Assembly (NCBI RefSeq): GCF_030013205.1
Contig: NZ_CP122648.1
DNA: 64,000 bases
Direction: 5' to 3' (one strand)
Source of the DNA: Escherichia coli
Lineage (GTDB): Bacteria > Pseudomonadota > Gammaproteobacteria > Enterobacterales > Enterobacteriaceae
In this document: positions 10,386 through 30,113 of the stretch, piece after piece
Position numbering within the stretch: position 1 is the first letter of the stretch
Layout: each line of letters opens with the position of its first letter
Notes under the pieces: model-generated
What the model was told of the DNA's origin: nothing
Databases searched by the model: none
Seen by the model: only the letters and a program-made list of their open reading frames with translations
Made by a program: the position numbers and the translations under genes

Positions 10386-11828
10386 TTAACCCAGTTGCCA
10401 GAGTGCTCCATGTTGCAGCACAGCCACTCCGTGGGAGGCATAGAGCGACAGTTCCCGTTCTTCTGGCTGCGGATATATTCGGCTACTCATCACCGCCTCC
10501 CCGTCGTTAATAAATACTTCCACGGATGATGTATCGATAAATATCCTTAGGGCGAGCATGTCACCCTGCGGGAGGGGAATACTACGGTAGCCATCTAAAT
10601 TCTCGTGTGGGTAATACCGCCACAAAACAAGTCGCTCAGATTGGTTATCAATATACAGCCGCATTCCAGTGCCGAGCTGTAATCCGTAATGTTCGGCATC
10701 ACTGTTCTTCAGCGCCCACTGCAACTGAATCTCAACTGCTTGCGCGTTTTCCTGCAAAACATATTTATTGCTGATTGTGCGGGGAGAGATAGATTGATGC
10801 TGCTGGCGTAACGACTCAGCTTCGTGTACCGGGCGTTGTAGAAGTTTGCCATTGCTCTCTGATAGCTCGCGCGCCAGCGTCATGCAGCCTGCCCAGCCTT
10901 CACGTTTTGAGGGCATTGGCGATTCCCACATATCCATCCAGCCGATAACAATACGCCGACCATCCTTCGCTAAAAAGCTTTGTGGTGCATAAAAGTCATG
11001 CCCGTTATCAAGTTCAGTAAAATGCCCGGATTGTGCAAAAAGTCGTCCTGGCGACCACATTCCGGGTATTACGCCACTTTGAAAGCGATTTCGGTAACTG
11101 TATCCCTCGGCATTCATTCCCTGCGGGGAAAACATCAGATAATGCTGATCGCCAAGGCTGAAAAAGTCCGGACATTCCCACATATAGCTTTCACCCGCAT
11201 CAGCGTGGGCCAGTACGCGATCGAAGGTCCATTCACGCAATGAACTGCCGCGATAAAGCAGGATCTGCCCCGTGTTGCCTGGATCTTTCGCCCCGACAAC
11301 CATCCACCATGTGTCGGCTTCACGCCACACTTTAGGATCGCGGAAGTGCATGATTCCTTCTGGTGGAGTGAGGATCACACCCTGTTTCTCGAAATGAATA
11401 CCATCCCGACTGGTAGCCAGACATTGTACTTCGCGAATTGCATCGTCATTACCTGCACCATCGAGCCAGACGTGTCCGGTGTAGATAAGTGAGAGGACAC
11501 CATTGTCATCGACAGCACTACCTGAAAAACACCCGTCTTTGTCATTCTCGTCTCCTGGCGCTAGCGCAATAGGCTCATGCTGCCAGTGGATCATATCGTC
11601 GCTGGTGGCATGTCCCCAGTGCATTGGCCCCCAGTGTTCGCTCATCGGGTGATGTTGATAAAACGCGTGATAACGATCGTTAAACCAGATCAGGCCGTTT
11701 GGATCGTTCATCCACCCGGCAGGAGGCGCGAGGTGAAAATGGGGATAGAAAGTGTTACCTCGGCGCTCGTGAAGTTTTGCTAGTGCGTTTTGCGCCGCAT
11801 GTAATCGAGATTGCGTCATTTTTATCAT
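10386..11828 (-). CDS. cscA: Sucrose-6-phosphate hydrolase / invertase CscA (GH32)
   Basis: GH32 motifs WMNDPNG and FRDP, EC catalytic region; true start may be three codons in (MTQSRL...). Confidence 0.9.
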   Translation of the reverse strand: MIKMTQSRLHAAQNALAKLHERRGNTFYPHFHLAPPAGWMNDPNGLIWFNDRYHAFYQHHPMSEHWGPMHWGHATSDDMIHWQHEPIALAPGDENDKDGCFSGSAVDDNGVLSLIYTGHVWLDGAGNDDAIREVQCLATSRDGIHFEKQGVILTPPEGIMHFRDPKVWREADTWWMVVGAKDPGNTGQILLYRGSSLREWTFDRVLAHADAGESYMWECPDFFSLGDQHYLMFSPQGMNAEGYSYRNRFQSGVIPGMWSPGRLFAQSGHFTELDNGHDFYAPQSFLAKDGRRIVIGWMDMWESPMPSKREGWAGCMTLARELSESNGKLLQRPVHEAESLRQQHQSISPRTISNKYVLQENAQAVEIQLQWALKNSDAEHYGLQLGTGMRLYIDNQSERLVLWRYYPHENLDGYRSIPLPQGDMLALRIFIDTSSVEVFINDGEAVMSSRIYPQPEERELSLYASHGVAVLQHGALWQLG

Positions 11829-12034
11829 CCTGGTTAAGCAAATTTGGTGAATTGTTAACGTTAACTTTTATAAAAATAAAGTCCCTTACTTTCATAAATG
11901 CGATGAATATCACAAATGTTAACGTTAACTATGACGTTTTGTGATCGAATATGCATGTTTTAGTAAATCCATGACGATTTTGCGAAAAAGAGGTTTATCA
12001 CTATGCGTAAGTCAGATGAATTTAAGGGAAAAAA

Positions 12035-12958
12035 ATGTCAGCCAAAGTATGGGTTTTAGGGGATGCGGTCGTAGATCTCTTGCCAGAATCAGACGGGCGG
12101 CTACTGCCTTGTCCTGGCGGCGCGCCAGCTAACGTTGCGGTGGGAATCGCCAGATTAGGCGGAACAAGTGGGTTTATAGGTCGGGTCGGTGATGATCCTT
12201 TTGGTGCGTTAATGCAAAGAACGCTGCTAACTGAGGGTGTCGATATCACGTATCTGAAGCAAGATGAATGGCACCGGACATCCACGGTGCTTGTCGATCT
12301 GAACGATCAAGGAGAACGTTCATTTACGTTTATGGTCCGCCCCAGTGCCGATCTTTTTTTAGAGACGACAGACTTGCCCTGCTGGCGACATGGCGAATGG
12401 TTACATCTCTGTTCAATTGCGTTGTCTGCCGAGCCTTCGCGTACCAGCGCATTTACTGCGATGACGGCGATCCGGCATGCCGGAGGTTTTGTCAGCTTCG
12501 ATCCCAATATTCGTGAAGATCTATGGCAAGACGAGCATTTGTTCCGCTTGTGTTTGCGGCAGGCGCTACAACTGGCGGATGTCGTCAAGCTCTCGGAAGA
12601 AGAATGGCGACTTATCAGTGGAAAAACACAGAACGATCGGGATATATGCGCGCTGGCAAAAGAGTATGAGATCGCCATGCTGTTGGTGACTAAAGGTGCA
12701 GAAGGGGTGGTGGTCTGTTATCGAGGACAAGTTCACCATTTTGCTGGAATGTCTGTGAATTGTGTCGATAGCACTGGGGCGGGAGATGCGTTCGTTGCCG
12801 GGTTACTCACAGGTCTGTCCTCTACGGGATTATCTACAGATGAGAGAGAAATGCGACGAATTATCAATCTCGCTCAACGTTGCGGAGCGCTTGCAGTAAC
12901 AGCGAAAGGGGCAATGACAGCGCTGCCATGTCGACAAGAACTGGAAGGTGAGAAGTAA
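12035..12958 (+). CDS. cscK: Fructokinase CscK (PfkB/ribokinase family)
   Basis: 307-aa ORF with GG and GAGD(A/T) PfkB signatures. Confidence 0.9.
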   Translation: MSAKVWVLGDAVVDLLPESDGRLLPCPGGAPANVAVGIARLGGTSGFIGRVGDDPFGALMQRTLLTEGVDITYLKQDEWHRTSTVLVDLNDQGERSFTFMVRPSADLFLETTDLPCWRHGEWLHLCSIALSAEPSRTSAFTAMTAIRHAGGFVSFDPNIREDLWQDEHLFRLCLRQALQLADVVKLSEEEWRLISGKTQNDRDICALAKEYEIAMLLVTKGAEGVVVCYRGQVHHFAGMSVNCVDSTGAGDAFVAGLLTGLSSTGLSTDEREMRRIINLAQRCGALAVTAKGAMTALPCRQELEGEK

Positions 12959-15344: not shown

Positions 15345-15555
15345 ATGAATATGGCAGCACCAAAGGGCAACCGATTTTGGGAGGCCCGCAGTAGTCATGG
15401 GCGAAATCCTAAATTCGAATCGCCTGAGGCGCTGTGGGCTGCTTGTTGTGAATACTTCGAGTGGGTAGAAGCTAACCCGCTATGGGAGATGAAGGCATTC
15501 TCGTATCAGGGTGAAGTGATACAAGAGCCTATCGCCAAGATGCGAGCGATGACCA
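15345..15555 (+). pseudogene. Small terminase subunit (P22 gp3-like), N-terminal about 70 codons only
   Basis: [71 protein letters not shown] matches the P22 gp3 N-terminus as I recall it; the rest of the 157-aa ORF is out-of-context read-through overlapping the next gene. Confidence 0.7.
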
Positions 15556-15657
15556 TTATCCAAACCGTATGCCTGTTGGTAGCGGTAATCAGTTGGCGAA
15601 GTGGAACGGTTGGAGTTACTTCCAGCGAAAGGAACCTTGCGATAACGGGAGCGAATA

Positions 15658-17076
15658 ATGCCGATTCAGCAACTTCCGCTCATGAAAGGTGTCGGAAAAG
15701 ACTTCCGAAACGCCGACTATATCGACTATCTGCCAGTGAATATGTTGGCTACACCCAAAGAAATCCTGAACAGCAGCGGATATCTTCGCTCATTCCCGGG
15801 CATTGCCAAACGTTCTGATGTGAACGGCGTATCGCGCGGAGTTGAGTACAACATGGCGCAGAGTGCTGTTTATCGCGTGTGTGGCGGCAAGCTGTACAAA
15901 GGAGAAAGTGAGGTCGGTGACGTCGCAGGAAGTGGTCGCGTATCAATGGCGCATGGTCGGACATCACAGGCGGTAGGCGTTAATGGTCAACTGGTCGAGT
16001 ATCGTTATGATGGCGCGGTCAAAACCGTCTCAAACTGGCCTACAGACAGCGGATTCACGCAGTATGAGTTAGGTTCTGTTCGTGACATTACGCGCTTACG
16101 TGGGCGTTATGCGTGGTCAAAAGACGGAACTGATTCATGGTTTATCACTGACCTTGAAGACGAATCGCATCCTGACCGTTACAGCGCACAATATCGTGCC
16201 GAGTCGCAGCCTGACGGCATCATCGGCATCGGAACATGGCGAGACTTCATCGTCTGCTTTGGTTCATCGACGATTGAATATTTCTCCCTGACTGGTGCAA
16301 CCACCGTTGGTGCCGCTTTGTATGTTGCACAGCCATCACTGATGGTGCAGAAAGGTATTGCTGGGACTTACTGCAAAACGCCATTCGCTGATTCTTATGC
16401 GTTCATCAGCAATCCGGCAACAGGTGCGCCGTCTGTATACATCATCGGCTCCGGTCAGGTGTCACCAATCGCCAGCGCGAGCATTGAGAAAATCCTCCGC
16501 TCCTACACTGCTGATGAACTGGCTGATGGCGTGATGGAATCGCTGCGGTTTGATGCGCATGAGTTGCTGATTATCCATCTTCCGCGCCATGTCCTCGTGT
16601 ACGACGCATCTTCAAGCGCCAATGGTCCGCAATGGTGTGTGCTGAAAACAGGCCTGTATGACCATGTGTACCGCGCTATTGACTTCATTTACGAAGGCAA
16701 TCAGATAACGTGCGGCGATAAGCTGGAGTCTGTTACCGGGAAATTGCAGTTCGATATATCTTCACAATACGAAAAACAACAAGAGCATATTTTATATTCC
16801 CCTCTAATAAAGGCAGATAACGCTTTAATAAATGACCTTGAATTAGAAACATCTGGCGGCGTGTGTGATAGAATAGATAAAATATTTATATCAGCCACTA
16901 CAGATGGAATTAGTTACGGTCGTGAGCAAATGGTCGTATTACAAAAACCATTTGTATATGAAAATCGCGTTTTATGGCGAAAGGTTGGTCGAGTTAGACG
17001 CCTCATTGGATTTAAATTCAGAGTTATTGCAAAAGGTCCTGTCACATTATCAGGCCTTTCTATTCGTGTAACATAA
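15658..17076 (+). CDS. P22 gp10-like packaged-DNA stabilization / head completion protein
   Basis: 472-aa [52 protein letters not shown]..., same length and near-identical N-terminal region as P22 gp10 from memory. Confidence 0.85.
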
Positions 17077-17097: not shown

Positions 17098-17631
17098 ATG
17101 TTAAGTGAAAACGCAAAAGATATCGAAGGATATGAAGGACTGTACGCCATCACTAATGATGGTAGAGTTTACTCGCATTCAAGAGTAAATTTGAGGGGAC
17201 GTCTTATTAAGGGTAGGTGGCTGAAGCATAATCATAACGTAAATGGATATAAGTATGTGTGTTTATATAAGGATGGCGTAAAAAAGAACATACTAATACA
17301 TAAGCTTGTTGCATCTCACTTTGTTGGTGGATTTGCTGAAGGGTTACAGGTAAATCATATAGATGGTGATAAATATAATAATAACTATCTAAATCTTGAA
17401 TGGGTTACTCCATCAGGAAACATCTCACACTCATATGGATTGGAGTCGAGAGGTAATGTAAAAGGAGAAAGGAATGGTAATTCTAAAATATCTAATGATG
17501 ATGTCATAAAGATAAAAGAAATGGTTGCCAATGGATTTCCTCAGTGTGAAGTTGCTAAATTATTTGGAATTCACAATTCAAAGGTTAGTAGAATTGTAAA
17601 TGGCAAGGCATGGAGGCATGTTAATGGCTGA
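17098..17631 (+). CDS. HNH homing endonuclease (HNH + AP2/NUMOD-like DNA-binding region)
   Basis: 177-aa ORF with [17 protein letters not shown] and HKLVASHFV...[11 protein letters not shown] (HNH) motifs; free-standing between gp10 and the tail needle gene. Confidence 0.8.
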
Positions 17632-18055
17632 TTCGAATCTCAACACCCCTGTTATTGTGCAGGCTACGCGGCTCGATACATCAATACTTCCACGCAATAT
17701 CTTCTCGCAGTCGTATCTGCTTTACGTTATCGCACAGGGCACTGATGTTGGTAACGTGGCTAACAAGGCCAACGAGGCCGGACAGGGCGCTTATGATGCA
17801 CAGGTCAGGAACGATGAGCAGGATGTGATTCTGGTCGATCATGAAGAAAGAATTCGTCAGCTCCGCATTGAAGTAGATGACCATGAAATCCGTATTGCTG
17901 CGAATACTGCGGCAATTGCAGCGCTGGATGTCAGACTAACCACGGCTGAAGGAGAAATAGTCACCTTACAGGCTGACGTCAGCGCTCTTGATGGCCGGGT
18001 TCCCGAGAAATACAAAGAGCAGAATTACAAGAAAAGGCTCTGGACAGACAGATAG
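17624..18055 (+). CDS. Tail needle protein (P22 gp26-like), N-terminal domain conserved, short divergent C-terminus
   Basis: [43 protein letters not shown]...[48 protein letters not shown] matches the gp26 N-terminal coiled coil; only 143 aa versus about 233 in P22. Confidence 0.7.
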
Positions 18056-18582
18056 CCAGAGAAAGCAATCAGTTAAAGCTCGAAGAGCTAAAACAGAAAC
18101 AGGCAGATGTTCGGCAAAAGGCTGACATAGCCCGCGCTGACAGGCAGGCCGCCGCTCAGGGTGCGGTTGATACGTTCAGCACCGCGCTTGATTCTCTCAA
18201 CGAGACAGAGCAAAGCCCCGGCCTTTCAAAAGCAGTAGGAATTCGCTCAGCGTTTCCGACAGTTCCTGGCTCTGATGCGGCTAACTTTGAAGCAAGACTC
18301 GACACCTTTAAAGCTCAAACTTTCCTCCCTATGGTGCAGTCCCTGAAGGGGATGGGGGCTCTTTCAGATGCTGAGGGTAAAAAATTATCTGATGCGGTTG
18401 GTGCTCTAAGTCCCAAAATGAGTGAAAAGGCTTTTCGTGACTCTATCGGAAAGATTCGAAATCAGCTTGAAAGCAAGTTGAGCACTGTTAAAAAACAGTT
18501 TGATTATCAGGAGCCAGTACAGAATACGCCAGGGCAACAATCTACTACTGGCAGTAACTTTTCTTCACTATGGGGTGATTAA
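17986..18582 (+). pseudogene. Start-less coiled-coil ORF fragment (possible 3' part of a tail needle or ejection gene after a deletion or frameshift)
   Basis: Frame open from 17986 with no ATG until 18331; encodes ...LKLEELKQKQADVRQKADIARADRQAAAQGAVDTFSTALDSL...; stop overlaps the start of the next gene (ATGA at 18579-18582). Confidence 0.3.
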
Positions 18583-20579
18583 TGGCTAAAGCATGGAAAG
18601 ATGTTATCGCCTCTCCACAGTATCAGGCGTTAGCACCAGAACAAAAAGCGCAGGCTCAGGAGCAATACTTCAATGAAGTCGTTGCCCCGCAAGCCGGAGA
18701 AAATGCAGAGCAGGCTAAGCAAGCTTTCTATGCTGCCTATCCATTGCCATATGTGCAGCAAGTGGAGACACAGCAACCAGTAGCACAGCAACAACCACAG
18801 CAAAGTGGATTTATGTCTGATCTTGGCGAAGCAGTAAAAGAGACTGGTCGCGGACTGGTGCAGGCTGGCGTGAACGTGGCAAACATACCTGCATCAGTTG
18901 CCGATGCTGTAACAAGCGCGGCGGCTTGGGCTGGCGGTAAACTCGGCATTGGCGATGGTACATATCAACCAGCGCCACGTGTAACAACGCAGGGATTAGA
19001 GCAGGACTTTGGCCTTCAGCAAGGCGCGCTGACTCCACAAACGACAGAGGGAAGGGTATTTGCTGAAGCATTGCCTTACCTCACTCCTGCTGGCGTTGAG
19101 AGAGCGGCAGCACAGGCACCAACACTTGCTGGTCGAATTGCTCATGGGGCAACTCGCCTTCTAGCAGAAAACGCAGTTGGATCACTTGCTGCAAATAGTG
19201 CGAAAGATGATGCGGAAGCACTCGCCACCGATTTGGGCGTTGGTGTGCTGGCTGGCGGTGCTATTAACGCTGCCGGACGTGGATTAGGTGCTGCTTATCG
19301 TGGAGTTCGTGGTGCTATTGCGCCAGAAGCGCAGCAAGCTATCAGATTTGCAGAGCGTGAAGGAGTGCCTCTGCACACCACAGACATGTTACAGCCTACT
19401 TCCCGCGTCGGAAAAATGGCGCAAACGACAGCAGAAAATATCCCCCTGGCGGGCACAAGCGGAATGAGAGCAACGCAACAGGAAGCGAGAAGCCAGTTGG
19501 TTCAGAGATTTGCTGATAAATTCGGTGAGTATGATCCAGCGGTTGTTATTGACAGCCTTAAAGCGAAAACATCAGGAATTCGTCGCGCTGCAGGAAATCG
19601 ACTGGAGCAGGTTCAGAATGCTATGGCGGGAATAAACATTCAGCCTGCAAGAGCAATTCAGCAGATTGATACAGAAATATCTAACCTGCAGAAGCTTGGT
19701 AAGGTTGCTGATAACGAGACTATTTCAAAACTTCAGTCCTATCGTGATGAGCTTGTTCGCAATGCTGGTCCTGATGGTCCGGTAAATCTGGATTTGAAGC
19801 AATTAAGCGATCTGCGCAGCCAGTTCAGAATGGACGTGAAGGGTGAGCGACCAGTGTTACCAAACCGTTCCGATGCTGCAATTCAGCGCGTTTACAAGGC
19901 AATGACCGACGATATCAATGGTGCCATTGGTCAGAATCTTGGCAACGATACTCTCCGTAAATATCAGCAGGCCAATGCCGTCTACGCTGACGAAGCCGCG
20001 AAACTAAAGAATACCAGGCTGAAGAATGTTCTCATGAAAGGCGATCTGACGCCGGAAGTTGTCAACAACATGCTATTCAGCAAGAACAAATCGGAAATTA
20101 AGACGCTGTATAACTCAGTTGGTCGTGTTGGCAGGGCGCAAATGCGCAATGGCATCATTGGAAAGGCGATGGAGAAATCTGGCGGATCCCCTGACCAGTT
20201 CCTTCGGCAGCTTAACATCCTGCAAAACCAGACTGGCATCACATTTAAGGGGCAGGACGCTGCTTATCTGAAAGGATTAAAAAACTACCTGCAATCTACG
20301 CAGCAGGCTGCAAAAGCGGCAGTAACAACACCCACAGGGCAGCAAACTATCCCGTTCATTATTGGGTATGGGACGGCAATGAACCCTGCGACAACTGGCG
20401 CAGCAGTAAGCTACGGACTTCTTACTCGCGCCTATGAGAGCGAGCCATTCAGAAATGCAATGCTCAGAATGGCAAACACCCCACGCGGATCAACAGCGTT
20501 TGAGAAAGCCATGCAGCAGGCACAAAAGGCAATTAACGCTCTGACGCAGGGGGCTAAGTCTGATGCGTTGTCAGAATAG
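18582..20579 (+). CDS. Putative phage DNA-transfer (ejection/injection) protein
   Basis: 665-aa Ala/Gln/Gly-rich protein in the position of the P22 ejection-protein genes (after the tail needle, before mnt); assignment is positional and compositional. Confidence 0.5.
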   Translation: MAKAWKDVIASPQYQALAPEQKAQAQEQYFNEVVAPQAGENAEQAKQAFYAAYPLPYVQQVETQQPVAQQQPQQSGFMSDLGEAVKETGRGLVQAGVNVANIPASVADAVTSAAAWAGGKLGIGDGTYQPAPRVTTQGLEQDFGLQQGALTPQTTEGRVFAEALPYLTPAGVERAAAQAPTLAGRIAHGATRLLAENAVGSLAANSAKDDAEALATDLGVGVLAGGAINAAGRGLGAAYRGVRGAIAPEAQQAIRFAEREGVPLHTTDMLQPTSRVGKMAQTTAENIPLAGTSGMRATQQEARSQLVQRFADKFGEYDPAVVIDSLKAKTSGIRRAAGNRLEQVQNAMAGINIQPARAIQQIDTEISNLQKLGKVADNETISKLQSYRDELVRNAGPDGPVNLDLKQLSDLRSQFRMDVKGERPVLPNRSDAAIQRVYKAMTDDINGAIGQNLGNDTLRKYQQANAVYADEAAKLKNTRLKNVLMKGDLTPEVVNNMLFSKNKSEIKTLYNSVGRVGRAQMRNGIIGKAMEKSGGSPDQFLRQLNILQNQTGITFKGQDAAYLKGLKNYLQSTQQAAKAAVTTPTGQQTIPFIIGYGTAMNPATTGAAVSYGLLTRAYESEPFRNAMLRMANTPRGSTAFEKAMQQAQKAINALTQGAKSDALSE

Positions 20580-20668
20580 CTTTTCAAACACCAGGAACGT
20601 GCAAAAACCAAATATGTAGAATGCAATATTCATCATATCTCTGTGCATAAATCCTCCGTAACGGATGG

Positions 20669-20932
20669 TTATCTGCTGTCTTTTTTATATAGCTCCTTGA
20701 GCGTATCAAAGACAATTTTCTTAACCATATCAGATTGTTGTTCTGCCATACGCTCTGCATCGTCAATGTAAACTGATGCAGAGCTTTGTTTATCCAATGA
20801 TTCTTCAATCGCTGCAATTATCTCTGAGTTCAGCGACCTGTTATTCATCTTCGCACGCAGCTTAATTTTCGCGTGGAGTTCATGCGGAAGTCTCAAGTGA
20901 AACTGCGCCTCATCGTATTTGCTGTACATCAT
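20669..20932 (-). CDS. mnt: Mnt/Arc-family ribbon-helix-helix repressor
   Basis: 87-aa product MMYSKYDEAQFHLRLPHELHAKIKLRAKMNNRSLNSEIIAAIEESL...DMVKKIVFDTLKELYKK resembles P22 Mnt; the longer 244-aa ORF in the track is an upstream read-through. Confidence 0.75.
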   Translation of the reverse strand: MMYSKYDEAQFHLRLPHELHAKIKLRAKMNNRSLNSEIIAAIEESLDKQSSASVYIDDAERMAEQQSDMVKKIVFDTLKELYKKDSR

Positions 20933-21734: not shown

Positions 21735-21749
21735 GGTAATGACTCCAAC

Positions 21750-22253
21750 TTACTGATAGTGTTTTATGTTCAGATAATGCCCGATGACCTTGTCATGCAG
21801 CTCCACCGATTTTGAGAACGACAGTGACTTCCGTCCCAGCCTTGCCAGATGTTGTCTCAGATTCAGGTTATGCCGCTCAATGCGCTGAGTATAACGCTTG
21901 CTGATAACGTGCAGCTTTCCCTTCAGGCGTGATTCATACAGCGGCCAGCCATCCGTCATCCATACCACGACCTCAAAGGCCGACAGCAGGCTCAGAAGAC
22001 GCTCCAGTGTGGCCAGAGTGCGTTCACCGAAGACGTGCGCCACAACCGTCCTCCGCATCCTGTCATACGCGTAAAACAGCCAGCGCTGACGTGATTTAGC
22101 ACCGACGTAGCCCCACTGTTCGTCCATTTCAGCGCAGACAATCACATCACTGCCCGGTTGTATGCGCGAGGTTACCGACTGCGGCCTGAGTTTTTTAAGT
22201 GGCGGAAAATCGTGTTGAGGCCAACGCCAATAATGCGTGCACTGGCGCGACAT
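21750..22253 (-). CDS. insB: IS1 InsB' (transposase made as an InsAB' frameshift fusion)
   Basis: 167-aa ORF ending ...[18 protein letters not shown], overlapping insA in the -1 frame. Confidence 0.95.
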
Positions 22254-22447
22254 CCGACGCCATTCATGGCCATATCAATGATTTTCTGGTGCGTACCGGG
22301 CTGAGAGGCGGCGTAAGTGAACTGTAGTTGCCATGTTTTACGGCAGTGAGAGCAGAGATAGCGCTGATGTCCGGCGGTGCTTTTGCCGTTACGCACCACC
22401 CCGTCAGTAGCTGAACAGGAGGGACAGCTGATAGAAACAGAAGCCAC
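22172..22447 (-). CDS. insA: IS1 InsA
   Basis: 91-aa [46 protein letters not shown]... Confidence 0.95.
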
Positions 22448-22502
22448 TGGAGCACCTCAAAAACACCATCATACACTAAATCAGTAAGTTGGCAGCATCA
22501 CC

Positions 22503-27991: not shown

Positions 27992-28205
27992 TTAATTATT
28001 ATCATATTGATTTATATGTTATTTATTTTAGCCATCTTGTTTTTGTACCCGTTTTGTACCCGTTTTATTCTATTCCCAATTTAAACTTCGATTCTGGAAA
28101 GGTGAGTAGGGGAGGTTATCATTTTATGTATCATTGTTGTAGACACAGAATAATTACTCGCCTATCCTCACTGTATACACACCATAGATACAGGAGTTAA
28201 CCCAC

Positions 28206-28454
28206 ATGCGCACACAGGTTGTATTGCAAAAATGGGGTAACAGCATTGCCCTTCGACTAACGGGAAACCTTAAAACCGTTCCGGGTTTTTCAGTGGGTGA
28301 TATCGTCAACGTTGAAATTAGTGAAAAAGGGCTTTTTGTAGAAAAGCCTGCACGCCGTCGCCTGAGTGAAGCCGAACTACTCGCCGGGATAACGCCAGTT
28401 ACAGCGCACGCTGACGAAATTGCCACCCCATTCAATGAGGAGGTTGATTACTGA
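28206..28454 (+). CDS. MazE/PemI/ChpS-family antitoxin (AbrB/SpoVT fold)
   Basis: 82-aa ORF MRTQVVLQKWGNSIALRLTGNLKTVPGFSVGDIVNVEISEKGLFVEKP... Confidence 0.8.
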   Translation: MRTQVVLQKWGNSIALRLTGNLKTVPGFSVGDIVNVEISEKGLFVEKPARRRLSEAELLAGITPVTAHADEIATPFNEEVDY

Positions 28455-28798
28455 TGTTTGTACCTAAGCGTGGTGATATTTGCTGGCTGGATTTTGAGCC
28501 GCAGAAAGGAAAAGAGATCGGAAAGTATCGCCCGGCACTCATACTATCCCATGAGCAATATAACCGACTCACCGGGCTTGTCATATGCTGCCCCATAAGT
28601 ACGAGCATACGAAATGCTCCCACAGAAGTTCCGGTAACAAATCTGGACGCCCCCAGCGTGGTAGCAACCACACTCATTCAAACCCTTGACTGGCGTCAGC
28701 GGAAAGCGCGCTTAATCACAGAGGCAGAAGATGGGGTATTTAATGATGTGCTTGAAAGAGTCATTACTCTGATTGGTGGAGAGCATCTGCTTAAGTAA
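28454..28798 (+). CDS. MazF/PemK-family endoribonuclease toxin
   Basis: 114-aa ORF MFVPKRGDICWLDFEPQKGKEIGKYRPALILSHEQYNRLTGLVICCPISTS..., start overlapping the antitoxin stop. Confidence 0.8.
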   Translation: MFVPKRGDICWLDFEPQKGKEIGKYRPALILSHEQYNRLTGLVICCPISTSIRNAPTEVPVTNLDAPSVVATTLIQTLDWRQRKARLITEAEDGVFNDVLERVITLIGGEHLLK

Positions 28799-28841
28799 AA
28801 GGAGGGCTGAGAAGCCCTCAACGTTACCGGAAATTTCCTTG

Positions 28842-30113
28842 CTATTCTTTCCAGTCAATCCCATCCAGTAAGCACCCTGCCTCATATTGCCCCACCACCC
28901 AGTCAAGGTTACAGGACTCATAGAACGCGAGGCGATTATACTGAGGCTCGTTTTTTACCAGGCCACGAACGGAACCACGCTGCCAGTACAGACACAGATT
29001 GGCAAGAGGTGTGATCAATACAGCATTGTCCGGGAAAAATGGAACGGTCACAGCCGGGAGATTCCCCAGAACGGGATTTTTAATGATTTCCTCGTTAAGC
29101 AAAATTTCCTGATTCATCTGCGATGGATCAAGACGGTTTATCAAAGGCCATTGTTTACGGACCAGCGTATTGTGACTGCATACGGCCACAATGCCTTCCT
29201 GCCACTGTTCATCAATCATGGATTGCCAGGCATCCAGAACGAGCGCATCTATCGTATGGTGTGTACCGCGTATATTACTTTTCGGTGATGAGACAGAAAG
29301 GCCGCTGATAACCCTTCCCGCCGCTTCATTTCGAAACTTCTGCAACCAGCCCACGCCGCAATCGTCACGCCCCGGATATGTTCCGGGATCTGATACATCG
29401 GCATAGTGCGTACCGTTAAAACCAATCTGAATCAAATCCAGCCATTTCTGGCGTTCAAAAGCAGCCCGGGCGCTTCCTTCAAGACCGTTTGCGGATGCGT
29501 GAGCATCAACATTGTCGTAGTTCAGCGCAAAATCAAAATTAACCTGCTCGCAGCGGTAGCCCCTTGAAACCAGTGAATGCGCCTGTAGTGGCGAGCGGCG
29601 CTCGTGAGGTGGCGATGTACGTGCTAACGGCCCCGAAGCGTCTACCAGCACAACCTGACCTGATATATCCGTAACAGGCACGGGAGTTATTTCAGCAAGG
29701 AAATTTGCCTGCCATCCACTGGCAAGCGTTGCACTCTGGCGGGGGACGGGTTCAACTTCTGACGAATAGCGCGCAGTGTCACCGGAAAAGTGCAAATCCT
29801 TCGGATGCTTTCCGGTTATCGACTCGATAGCGCAATTGAAAACCATCTGAGACTGTTGATTTCGTTGTGATACAACAGAATCAGCAGTGCAATTATAACG
29901 CTCAATGCCGTCGTTATTACCCCCACCGCTTGCAGTATGCAGGGTGTGAAGCTCAAGCTCACGCTCCAGTTTTTGATATTCATTGTCCAGCGCGCGACGC
30001 GTCTCATCGCTTATGCTTGCTGTGTTTGCTTTCAGGCGATTCCGGGACATTAATCCCCTGAGTCGGCTCACTATATCAGCGCCGTGCAAATGTGGAGTAT
30101 TCAGACCGCCCAT
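28842..30113 (-). CDS. P2 gpN-family major capsid protein homologue with divergent N-terminal region
   Basis: Start taken at internal ATG 30113 (TAATG overlap with the upstream gene stop). C-terminal two-thirds align by eye with P2 gpN (...YRCEQVNFDF..., ...GWLQKFRNEAAGRV..., ...GNLPAVTVPFFPDNAVLITPLANL..., ...YESCNLDWVVGQYEAGCL...). Confidence 0.7.
   Translation of the reverse strand: MGGLNTPHLHGADIVSRLRGLMSRNRLKANTASISDETRRALDNEYQKLERELELHTLHTASGGGNNDGIERYNCTADSVVSQRNQQSQMVFNCAIESITGKHPKDLHFSGDTARYSSEVEPVPRQSATLASGWQANFLAEITPVPVTDISGQVVLVDASGPLARTSPPHERRSPLQAHSLVSRGYRCEQVNFDFALNYDNVDAHASANGLEGSARAAFERQKWLDLIQIGFNGTHYADVSDPGTYPGRDDCGVGWLQKFRNEAAGRVISGLSVSSPKSNIRGTHHTIDALVLDAWQSMIDEQWQEGIVAVCSHNTLVRKQWPLINRLDPSQMNQEILLNEEIIKNPVLGNLPAVTVPFFPDNAVLITPLANLCLYWQRGSVRGLVKNEPQYNRLAFYESCNLDWVVGQYEAGCLLDGIDWKE

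What the first reader, a model, noticed from the sequence alone, without database searches (positions are those of the whole stretch)
17624..18582. Tail needle gene diverges after residue 125 and is followed by a start-less coiled-coil ORF
The gp26-like product ends only 18 residues after the conserved N-terminal coiled coil. A 199-codon frame with no ATG until codon 116 follows in the +2 phase and is coupled to the next gene (ATGA). This is either a frameshifted or deleted tail needle, or a fusion with the first ejection-protein gene.
Basis: seen in the sequence. Interest (0 to 1): 0.3.

Follow-up and report, generated by a model that had tools for sequence, protein, structure and literature searches.

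The report
Deletion scar at a recurrent breakpoint
The short tail-needle gene and the start-less frame after it are the two sides of a 2.2-kb deletion in a decayed P22/Sf6-like prophage of pig-associated E. coli, which is ordinary, but the same base of the needle gene has been the deletion endpoint at least six separate times, which points to a site-specific DNA break.

Summary
The needle ORF (17624-18055) matches intact 233-aa needles for 126 codons, then reads 17 junk codons. The following frame has no ATG, GTG or TTG until 18331.

It is not a frameshift or sequencing error. From 18001 the DNA is the last 193 codons of the second ejection-protein gene (Sf6 gene 12, the P22 gene 20 homologue; 98% identity to residues 239-431). 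It is joined out of frame to needle nt 378 through a 2-nt TT overlap. About 2.2 kb is missing: the needle C-terminus, the gp14 and gp7 homologues and the first half of gp12.

The host element is a degraded prophage at argW. It also carries a terS'::gp4' deletion and an IS1 in the tailspike. RefSeq already marks both pieces as partial pseudogenes, and 14 complete genomes share the junction.

The unexpected result is that needle nt 376-378 (...GGCCGGGTT^A) is the left endpoint of at least six different deletions. Four sit in near-identical pig-strain backgrounds (partners gp7', gp12', gp13', arc). Two are in unrelated prophages. Four of the six use the terminal TT.

An intact I-HmuI-like HNH nicking-endonuclease gene lies directly upstream. 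A nick-anchored deletion hotspot is my leading hypothesis for this, and it is untested.

The parts
15345..15558 (+). 5' remnant of the small terminase gene (terS'). It ends at a deletion junction with a TTA overlap at 15556-15558.
   Evidence: RefSeq annotates it as 'terminase small subunit, missing C-terminus'. Alignment with CUVET19-1937 and with the intact terS of L015 places the junction.
15556..15658 (+). Last ~100 nt of the gp4 (tail adaptor) gene (gp4'). This is the right side of the terS'::gp4' deletion that removed terL, portal, scaffold and coat.
   Evidence: The same right endpoint (...CCGGT|TATCC) is used by a different deletion in strain CUVET19-1937 (L014).
15658..17076 (+). Intact gp10-type gene (472 aa), which encodes the protein the needle plugs into.
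   Evidence: Pfam PF11134 Phage_stabilise, E 1e-280. Annotated as 'packaged DNA stabilization protein'.
17098..17631 (+). Intact free-standing homing-endonuclease gene (177 aa) with NUMOD4, HNH_3 and a C-terminal HTH. It overlaps the needle start codon by 8 nt.
   Evidence: Pfam NUMOD4 5e-13 and HNH_3 5e-10. Full-length homology to the nicking endonuclease I-HmuI, PDB 1U3E, E 8e-21. The gene is absent from HEG-less relatives, where gp10 abuts the needle gene.
17624..18001 (+). Tail needle (P22 gp26-type) gene, codons 1-126 only. It ends ...GATGGCCGGGTT.
   Evidence: 126/126 identical to an intact 233-aa needle. DNA matches to other needles stop at nt 378. RefSeq lists it as 'phage tail protein, missing C-terminus'.
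18000..18001 (+). Deletion junction. The TT is shared by the needle (GGGTT|A) and gp12 (CTCTT|TCCC), a 2-nt microhomology.
   Evidence: Comparison of the window with the intact needle and intact gp12.
18002..18055 (+). 17 out-of-frame codons plus a TAG. Here the needle frame runs on into gp12 DNA.
18001..18582 (+). 3' part of the second ejection-protein gene (Sf6 gene 12 / P22 gene 20 type), codons 239-431. It has no start codon and is a pseudogene.
   Evidence: 190/193 identical to Sf6 gp12 residues 239-431. 97.6% DNA identity to Sf6 10975-12175. RefSeq marks it partial, 'missing N-terminus', but names it 'acyltransferase'.
18582..20579 (+). Intact third ejection-protein gene (Sf6 gene 13 / P22 gene 16 type, 665 aa).
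   Evidence: DNA match to Sf6 gene 13. The precomputed Pfam PF26808 Phage_P22_gp16 hits the same gene in L009.
20669..20929 (-). arc-family repressor gene. Its stop codon lies in GGTTA|TCTG, which is the right endpoint of the larger EC556-type deletion.
21735..22502 (-). IS1 (768 bp) inserted in the tailspike gene. It is absent from sister alleles.
   Evidence: InsA and InsB ORFs. Annotated 'IS1 family transposase'. A 768-nt insertion relative to L004, L008 and L009, with an 8-nt overlap between the aligned flanks consistent with a target duplication.

Best explanation
The region is a deletion scar in a decayed P22/Sf6-like (Lederbergvirus-type) prophage at the argW/intS site of a pig-associated E. 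coli lineage.

An illegitimate recombination event joined needle-gene nt 378 to codon 239 of the second ejection-protein gene through a 2-nt TT overlap. Relative to the intact gene order this removed about 2.2 kb: the needle C-terminal domain, the gp14 homologue, the gp7-type ejection gene and the first 238 codons of the gp20-type gene.

The join is out of frame. The needle frame therefore stops after 17 junk codons, and the ejection-gene remnant is a start-less open frame that still keeps its original TAATG overlap with the intact gp16-type gene.

Shown: the identity of both halves, the junction and its population spread. Inferred: neither remnant makes a functional product, and the event was a deletion inside one prophage.
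For: - Left half: 126/126 residues identical to an intact 233-aa needle, then no similarity.
- Right half: 190/193 identical to Sf6 gp12 residues 239-431. The DNA is colinear with Sf6 10975-12175, running into gene 13.
- Intact relatives carry needle, gp14, gp7, gp20 and gp16 in this order.
- The junction is GGGTT|CCCGAG. Both parents have TT at the crossover.
- 14 complete genomes carry the identical junction.
- RefSeq annotates two abutting partial pseudogenes at 18001.
- The prophage has other scars: terS'::gp4' and an IS1 in the tailspike.
- A sister allele (L009-L011) in the same chromosomal background keeps the whole gp12-gp13 block. It differs from the window by 2 mismatches in 2699 nt, so the window equals that allele minus 817 nt.
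Against: - No intact-needle version of this particular remnant was found, so the immediate parent is inferred, not observed. It could be an intact needle or the needle::gp7' allele.
- Expression of the 143-aa needle fragment cannot be excluded. It keeps its start codon, its coupling to the upstream genes and an intact gp10 partner.
- Pfam gives no hit for the 143-aa product or for the 193-aa remnant above threshold. Identification therefore rests on direct homology, not on family models.
Confidence: 0.96

Rival explanations
1. The recurrent endpoint is a site-specific nick or break made by the I-HmuI-like HNH homing endonuclease encoded just upstream (17098-17631). The enzyme would leave a fixed 3' end, ...GGGTT-3', at needle nt 378. 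After replication run-off or 5' resection, that end is rejoined to downstream DNA through 0-4 nt of terminal microhomology. If the recognition site lies on the retained side, the junction stays cleavable and the prophage is deleted progressively in one direction. This adds to the best explanation and does not replace it.
For: - Six different right partners share the left endpoint nt 376-378.
- Four of them lie in backgrounds that differ by 0-3 SNPs per 10 kb.
- Four of the six use the terminal TT, and one uses GGGT.
- Among complete genomes with this allele, 17 of 40 are cut exactly at nt 378 and none carries the right half only.
- The neighbouring gene is an intact full-length homologue of I-HmuI.
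- I-HmuI nicks one strand, has a degenerate ~24-bp site and nicks DNA with and without its own gene (PMC3017599).
- Free-standing endonucleases act hundreds to thousands of bp from their gene, and HNH Mob enzymes nick (PMC2988022).
Against: - Two of the six events (L006/7 and L012) have no endonuclease gene between gp10 and the needle. L006/7 has no close homologue elsewhere in the stretch read. Those events would need the enzyme in trans.
- Intact prophages with an endonuclease gene at the same position keep a whole needle with the same sequence at nt 378. That enzyme is only 50% identical to the window's.
- No cleavage data exist.
- Other fixed endpoints (gp4, and a second needle allele) are not next to this gene.
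Confidence: 0.3
2. The recurrent endpoint comes from some other sequence-directed process at GGTT^A, independent of the neighbouring endonuclease. Candidates are another nuclease or recombinase, a strong topoisomerase site, or fork stalling at the boundary of the 63-nt heptad repeat.
For: - GGTTA, or its complement TAACC, sits on every fixed endpoint seen. These are needle nt 375-379, gp4 (CCGGTTATCC), the second-allele needle site shared by the Q::needle and terL::needle fusions ((G)TAACCGAA), and the L022 site (TAACCACGG).
- The arc and cro partner sites also carry the motif.
- nt 379 is the first base of the second copy of a diverged 63-nt repeat, and natural 212-aa needles lack 21 aa there.
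Against: - GGTTA/TAACC occurs about twice per kb, so it cannot be the whole determinant.
- The motif was noticed after the fact.
- Single-strand folding around the site is unremarkable, z -2.05 and -1.49.
- I could match no known enzyme to the motif.
Confidence: 0.3
3. It is a sequencing or assembly error: an indel in a homopolymer near 17990-18060 splits one gene into two frames.
For: The two frames overlap by about 67 nt, which is what first suggested a frameshift.
Against: - The two frames are not homologous to one gene. The left is needle and the right is gp12 from codon 239.
- The same sequence is found in 14 complete genomes from several laboratories.
Confidence: 0.01
4. It is a functional arrangement: a naturally short needle plus a downstream protein made by programmed frameshifting or internal initiation.
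For: The 143-aa ORF keeps its start and the N-terminal plug domain. The downstream frame keeps its coupling to the next gene. An ATG exists at 18331.
Against: - No intact phage has this arrangement.
- Sister strains carry different partners at the same point, in frame or out of frame, so the downstream sequence is not conserved.
- The head genes are gone, so no virion can be built.
Confidence: 0.02

Closest known systems
P22 gp26 / Sf6 gp9 tail needle
   Same: The first 126 residues, comprising the N-terminal gp10-binding tip and most of the coiled-coil shaft, are identical to intact E. coli prophage needles. The gene order gp10 then needle is kept.
   Different: It lacks the last 107 residues (the end of the shaft and the C-terminal tip). 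The product ends in 17 foreign residues. An endonuclease gene is inserted between gp10 and the needle.
Sf6 gp12 / P22 gp20 ejection protein
   Same: 98% identical over residues 239-431, with the same overlap with the following gp16-type gene.
   Different: The first 238 codons and the start codon are missing. RefSeq calls the fragment 'acyltransferase', which the homology does not support.
Small P22-like prophage remnants in E. coli genomes
   Same: Leavitt et al. 2013 note more than 100 E. coli genomes carrying a several-gene remnant that includes a needle gene (PMC3741392). The window's element is likewise a several-gene remnant kept in the chromosome, with needle-region genes and the gtr and int genes retained.
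   Different: That paper calls the needle genes of those remnants unexceptional. Here the needle is cut, and cut at the same base in several alleles.
Deletions anchored at a site-specific nick (rolling-circle origins of M13 and pC194; Michel and Ehrlich, 1986; cited from my own knowledge, not checked here)
   Same: One endpoint is fixed to the nucleotide, the other is variable, and there is little or no homology at the join.
   Different: No rolling-circle origin or Rep gene is present. The nick is only inferred, and the candidate nickase is a homing endonuclease.
I-HmuI, the HNH nicking homing endonuclease of phage SPO1 (PDB 1U3E)
   Same: The neighbouring 177-aa protein aligns over its full length (E 8e-21) and has NUMOD4, HNH and HTH modules.
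   Different: It is free-standing rather than intron-encoded. Its target and its activity are unknown.

Membership tests
Tail needle (P22 gp26 type) | N-terminal tip and coiled-coil sequence homologous to known needles | tested here: met
   126/126 identity to an intact 233-aa needle. 527 homologues at E<=1e-10.
Tail needle (P22 gp26 type) | Complete gene with a C-terminal tip or knob domain (about 212-282 aa in intact phages) | tested here: not met
   The product is 143 aa and similarity ends at residue 126. It is a gene fragment, not a functional family member.
Ejection protein, Sf6 gp12 / P22 gp20 type | Sequence homology and position directly upstream of the gp16-type gene | tested here: met
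   190/193 identity to Sf6 gp12 239-431, with the TAATG overlap with the next gene preserved.
Ejection protein, Sf6 gp12 / P22 gp20 type | Full-length ORF (about 431-471 aa) with its own start codon | tested here: not met
   No ATG, GTG or TTG before 18331. The first 238 codons are absent.
Programmed ribosomal frameshift or fusion gene | The junction and both frames are conserved among relatives | tested here: not met
   Sister alleles join the same needle position to gp7', gp13', arc or other gp12 positions, in or out of frame.
IS-mediated adjacent deletion | An insertion sequence sits at the fixed endpoint | tested here: not met
   No IS lies at 18001 in any allele. The only IS1 is 3.7 kb away and is present only in the window type.
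I-HmuI-like HNH homing endonuclease (for the gene at 17098-17631) | NUMOD4 and HNH domains plus a C-terminal HTH, homologous to I-HmuI | tested here: met
   Pfam hits. PDB 1U3E at E 8e-21 over residues 7-174.
I-HmuI-like HNH homing endonuclease (for the gene at 17098-17631) | Present or absent between the same conserved genes in related genomes (a free-standing mobile cassette) | tested here: met
   Present in the window, L005 and L008-L011. Absent in L003, L006, L012, L014 and L015, where gp10 abuts the needle.
I-HmuI-like HNH homing endonuclease (for the gene at 17098-17631) | Site-specific nicking of a target near its insertion site, here proposed at needle nt 378 | not testable with these tools
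   Needs in vitro cleavage mapping. Only the indirect pattern of deletion endpoints is available.
Nick-anchored illegitimate recombination | One endpoint fixed to the nucleotide, with variable partners and terminal microhomology | tested here: met
   Six partners at nt 376-378. Microhomologies are TT x4, GGGT x1 and none x1. A mirror event also goes through GGTTACG.
Nick-anchored illegitimate recombination | A demonstrated nick at the fixed endpoint | not testable with these tools
   No biochemical data.

The most novel reading that the evidence does not exclude
Needle-gene nt 378 (...GGCCGGGTT^ACG) is the cleavage point of a site-specific nickase, most likely the I-HmuI-like homing endonuclease encoded 0.4 kb upstream. 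In a prophage no longer under selection, that nick seeds repeated one-directional deletions. A selfish endonuclease would then be the engine of nucleotide-precise, stepwise prophage decay. The GGTTA-marked fixed endpoints in gp4 and in other needle alleles may be further sites of the same kind.
Probability: 0.3. Interest if true: 0.65.

Novelty: new member of a known kind. Interest (0 to 1): 0.38.

Why it matters
Taken alone, the finding is routine prophage decay and is already flagged as two partial pseudogenes in RefSeq. Its only annotation value is that the 'acyltransferase' label is wrong: the fragment is the 3' part of a gp20-type ejection gene.

The reuse of one nucleotide as a deletion endpoint matters more. 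It occurs at least six times, and four of those are inside one nearly clonal lineage. Prophage degradation is usually treated as random deletion filtered by selection. Here the breakpoints look mechanistically directed, with a nicking homing endonuclease next door.

If the link holds, it gives a concrete, testable mechanism for how prophages are whittled down. It would also show a cost or side effect of free-standing homing endonucleases in lysogens. The natural allelic series (needle::gp7', ::gp12', ::gp13', ::arc) could be used to measure the process.

Tried and rejected
- Exact-pattern scans for other junctions (GCTGACGTCAGCGCTCTTGATGGCCGGGTNB) in metagenome and viral contigs gave 0 hits. 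The extra alleles came from protein clusters instead.
- Hairpin or cruciform at the site: single-strand DNA folding of both strands gave z -2.05 and -1.49, with nt 378 at no notable position.
- Replication direction from GC skew was inconclusive in this mosaic window.
- IS-mediated adjacent deletion: there is no IS at the junction.
- Immunity polymorphism: intact needles with and without the endonuclease gene have identical DNA around nt 378. This does not refute the hypothesis, because I-HmuI also nicks its own genome.
- Candidate motifs checked by eye and dropped: a Chi-like sequence, Ter, an EcoP15I site at distance, CCGG-type sites, BstEII and MaeIII sites, IS608 TTAC cleavage, integron GTT cores, an argW-like att core, and P22 pac similarity of the arc-side site. 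None fitted all junctions.
- L013, a possible seventh event in a different needle allele, was set aside. Its 47-nt gap cannot be placed unambiguously and the contig has 1.3x coverage.
- A literature search found no report of this hotspot.

Full report
**What is in the sequence**

The needle-like ORF starts at 17624 and stops at TAG 18053-18055, giving 143 codons. A second frame, in the +2 phase, is open from 17989 to TAA 18580-18582. It has no ATG, GTG or TTG before 18331. The next gene starts at 18582, overlapping the stop as TAATG, not ATGA.

**What the two halves are**

The 143-aa product is 126/126 identical to an intact 233-aa needle of an E. coli P22-like prophage, then loses all similarity.

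Translated from 18001, the second frame is 190/193 identical to residues 239-431 of Sf6 gp12, the homologue of P22 gp20. At the DNA level, window 18000-19200 is colinear with Sf6 10975-12175 at 97.6% identity and runs into Sf6 gene 13, the P22 gp16 homologue.

Intact relatives have the order gp10, needle, gp14, gp7, gp20, gp16. The window therefore lacks about 2.2 kb; measured on locus L003 the figure is 2198 nt.

The join is GGGTT|CCCGAG. The needle parent reads GGGTT|ACG and the gp12 parent reads CTCTT|TCCCG, so the two share a 2-nt TT. The join is out of frame, which explains both the early stop and the start-less frame.

**Context**

The window is 100% identical to the chromosomes of porcine ETEC and O139:H1 strains. 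14 complete genomes carry the same 2.2-kb stretch. RefSeq annotates two abutting partial pseudogenes that meet at 18001. The second is misnamed 'acyltransferase'.

The element lies between torI and intS. From my knowledge of the K-12 map this is the argW site occupied by KpLE1/CPS-53. It is heavily decayed:
- terS' is fused to the last ~100 nt of gp4, so terL, portal, scaffold and coat are gone.
- A 768-bp IS1 splits the tailspike gene.

What remains intact is gp10, a homing-endonuclease gene, the gp16-type gene, arc, the gtr genes and the integrase.

This settles the finding as given. It is a deletion scar, not a frameshift, not a sequencing error and not a functional fusion.

**The unexpected part: the same endpoint is reused**

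Strains EC556, EC571 and EC581 carry the same remnant, but their needle is joined at the same base to the stop codon of arc (GGGTT|TCTGCTG).

A protein search with the 143-aa product, followed by a look at its cluster, turned up further alleles. All have an identical ...SALDGRV126 followed by different sequence. Reading their contigs gave the following set.

| Allele | Locus | Junction | Right partner | Frame | Overlap |
|---|---|---|---|---|---|
| V1 | L009-L011 | GGGTT\|GCCGG | gp7 type, last 30 codons | in frame | TT |
| V2 | the window | GGGTT\|CCCGAG | gp12, codon 239 | out of frame | TT |
| V3 | L008 | GGGT\|ATGGG | gp13, last ~66 codons | out of frame | GGGT |
| V4 | EC556 type (L004) | GGGTT\|TCTGCTG | arc stop codon | non-coding | none |
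| E5 | L006/L007 | GGGTT\|CAGGGG | another gp7 allele, last 77 codons | in frame | TT |
| E6 | L012 | GGGTT\|GCAGC | another gp12 allele | in frame | TT |

V1 to V4 lie in the same chromosomal background. They differ by 0-3 SNPs per 10 kb upstream and are equally close downstream. V1 and the window differ by 2 of 2699 nt across gp12'-gp13-arc.

E5 and E6 have different synonymous haplotypes in the needle 5' part and no endonuclease gene next to the needle. They are independent events.

Among complete E. coli genomes that carry this allele block, 23 are intact and 17 stop exactly at nt 378. None carries only the right half.

Other aberrant needles found in the same searches are mostly frameshifts at a C-run, or they end at contig ends. 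Only two fusion junctions that retain the N-terminus lie elsewhere, at residues 117 and 162.

Six different joins at one base of a 700-nt gene cannot be chance, and selection does not act with single-base precision. Four of the six partners are preceded by TT, which shows that the retained end really includes ...GGGTT. It behaves like a physical 3' end that anneals by its last bases.

**Related fixed endpoints**

A search with the needle C-terminal half found fusions in the opposite direction:
- cro::needle, crossing within GGTTACG, which spans nt 375-381.
- Q::needle and terL::needle, in two different prophages. They share one right endpoint, (G)TAACCGAATCG, in another needle allele.
- A junction at TAACCACGG, at the start of the first heptad-repeat copy (L022).

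The window's own terS'::gp4' scar shares its right endpoint (CCGGT|TATCC) with a different deletion in strain CUVET19-1937.

GGTTA or its complement lies on every one of these fixed ends. The arc-side partner of V4 is the only top-strand GGTTA in the 3.5 kb downstream of the needle junction.

The motif occurs about twice per kb, and I noticed it after the fact. I record it as unexplained and do not count it as established.

**Most likely mechanism for the hotspot (hypothesis)**

The gene at 17098-17631 is intact in all four V alleles. It has NUMOD4, HNH_3 and HTH modules and aligns over its full length with I-HmuI, PDB 1U3E, at E 8e-21.

What is published about this family:
- I-HmuI nicks one strand, recognises a degenerate ~24-bp site, and nicks DNA both with and without its own gene. 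Replication is thought to turn the nick into a break (PMC3017599).
- Free-standing phage endonucleases act hundreds to thousands of bp from their gene, and the HNH-type MobA and MobE nick (PMC2988022).

A nick at nt 378, 0.4 kb from the gene, would give a fixed 3' end. If recognition lies on the retained side, the junction stays sensitive and deletions can extend stepwise. That is the V1-V4 pattern.

From the K-12 map and the assembly coordinates I infer that replication runs left to right through the locus. The nascent leading strand would then end in ...GGGTT at a template nick. This is inference only, because GC skew in the window was uninformative.

Points against:
- E5 and E6 lack the gene in cis, and L006/7 has only distant HNH relatives.
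- Intact prophages with a 50%-identical endonuclease at the same position keep whole needles with the same target sequence.
- The gp4 and second-allele endpoints are not explained.

I put this hypothesis at about 0.3. About the same weight goes to some other GGTT^A-directed or structure-directed process.

**Comparison with what is known**

The two gene fragments belong by homology to the gp26 needle family and the gp20/Sf6 gp12 ejection family. They fail the full-length criteria, so they are pseudogenes.

Small P22-like remnants in E. coli are known (PMC3741392). Deletions with one end fixed at a nick are classical for rolling-circle origins; I cite that from my own knowledge. I found no report of a needle-gene hotspot or of homing-endonuclease-anchored prophage deletions.

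**Verdict**

As given, the finding is ordinary and already annotated. The recurrent endpoint is a real and unexplained observation, and it is the reason for the interest score.

Caveats:
- V3 rests on one short-read assembly.
- E6 is a 781-nt metagenome contig at 4x coverage.
- L013, a possible seventh event, is ambiguous.
- No biochemical evidence exists.

Noticed in passing
window 15534-15565 and L014 9405-9440: The terS'::gp4' deletion junction (...GATGACCA[TTA]TCCAAACC) has the same right endpoint in gp4 (CCGGT|TATCC) as a different deletion in the otherwise fuller prophage of strain CUVET19-1937 (terS ...CCTGA[TA]TCC). This is a second fixed endpoint with variable partners.
   Followed up: partly
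window 17098-17631: An intact free-standing I-HmuI-like HNH endonuclease gene is inserted between gp10 and the needle and overlaps the needle start by 8 nt. It is absent from many relatives. The gene at the same position in strain BS15R-A (L005) is only 50% identical.
   Followed up: yes
window 17997-18001, 15553-15558, 20667-20671; L019 8229-8236; L021 1087-1093; L022 706-712: GGTTA, or its complement TAACC, lies on every recurrent or fixed deletion endpoint seen: the needle, gp4, the second needle allele, the first heptad repeat, and the arc and cro partner sites. The motif occurs about twice per kb, so it cannot be the whole signal. It is unexplained.
   Followed up: partly
L019 8001-8498 and L021 892-1356: Two unrelated prophages carry in-frame fusions of the antiterminator Q gene and of the large terminase gene to the same point of another needle allele (...KV|TESQS and ...QI|TESQS). 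Each has lost many kb of late genes.
   Followed up: partly
window 21735-22502: A 768-bp IS1 is inserted in the tailspike gene; the aligned flanks overlap by 8 nt, consistent with a target duplication. It is present only in the window-type allele. Sister alleles have an intact 649-aa tailspike.
   Followed up: yes
window 18001-18582: RefSeq names this partial pseudogene 'acyltransferase'. By homology it is the 3' part of the gp20 / Sf6 gp12-type ejection gene.
   Followed up: yes
L004 6343-6636: In the EC556-type allele the deletion removes the arc stop codon, so the arc ORF runs 11 codons into antisense needle DNA (97 aa instead of 86).
   Followed up: partly
needle nt 316-441 (window 17939-18001 for the first copy): The needle shaft holds two diverged 63-nt (21-aa) tandem copies, [21 protein letters not shown] and TTAESNISALQDDYVSKTA. 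Natural 212-aa needles lack exactly 21 aa here. The hotspot at nt 378/379 is the boundary between the two copies.
   Followed up: partly
window about 28200-30100 (L002 23205-25112): Just beyond intS, RefSeq annotates a MazE/MazF-type toxin-antitoxin pair followed by P2-family capsid genes. This looks like a second, unrelated prophage or satellite next to the remnant.
   Followed up: no
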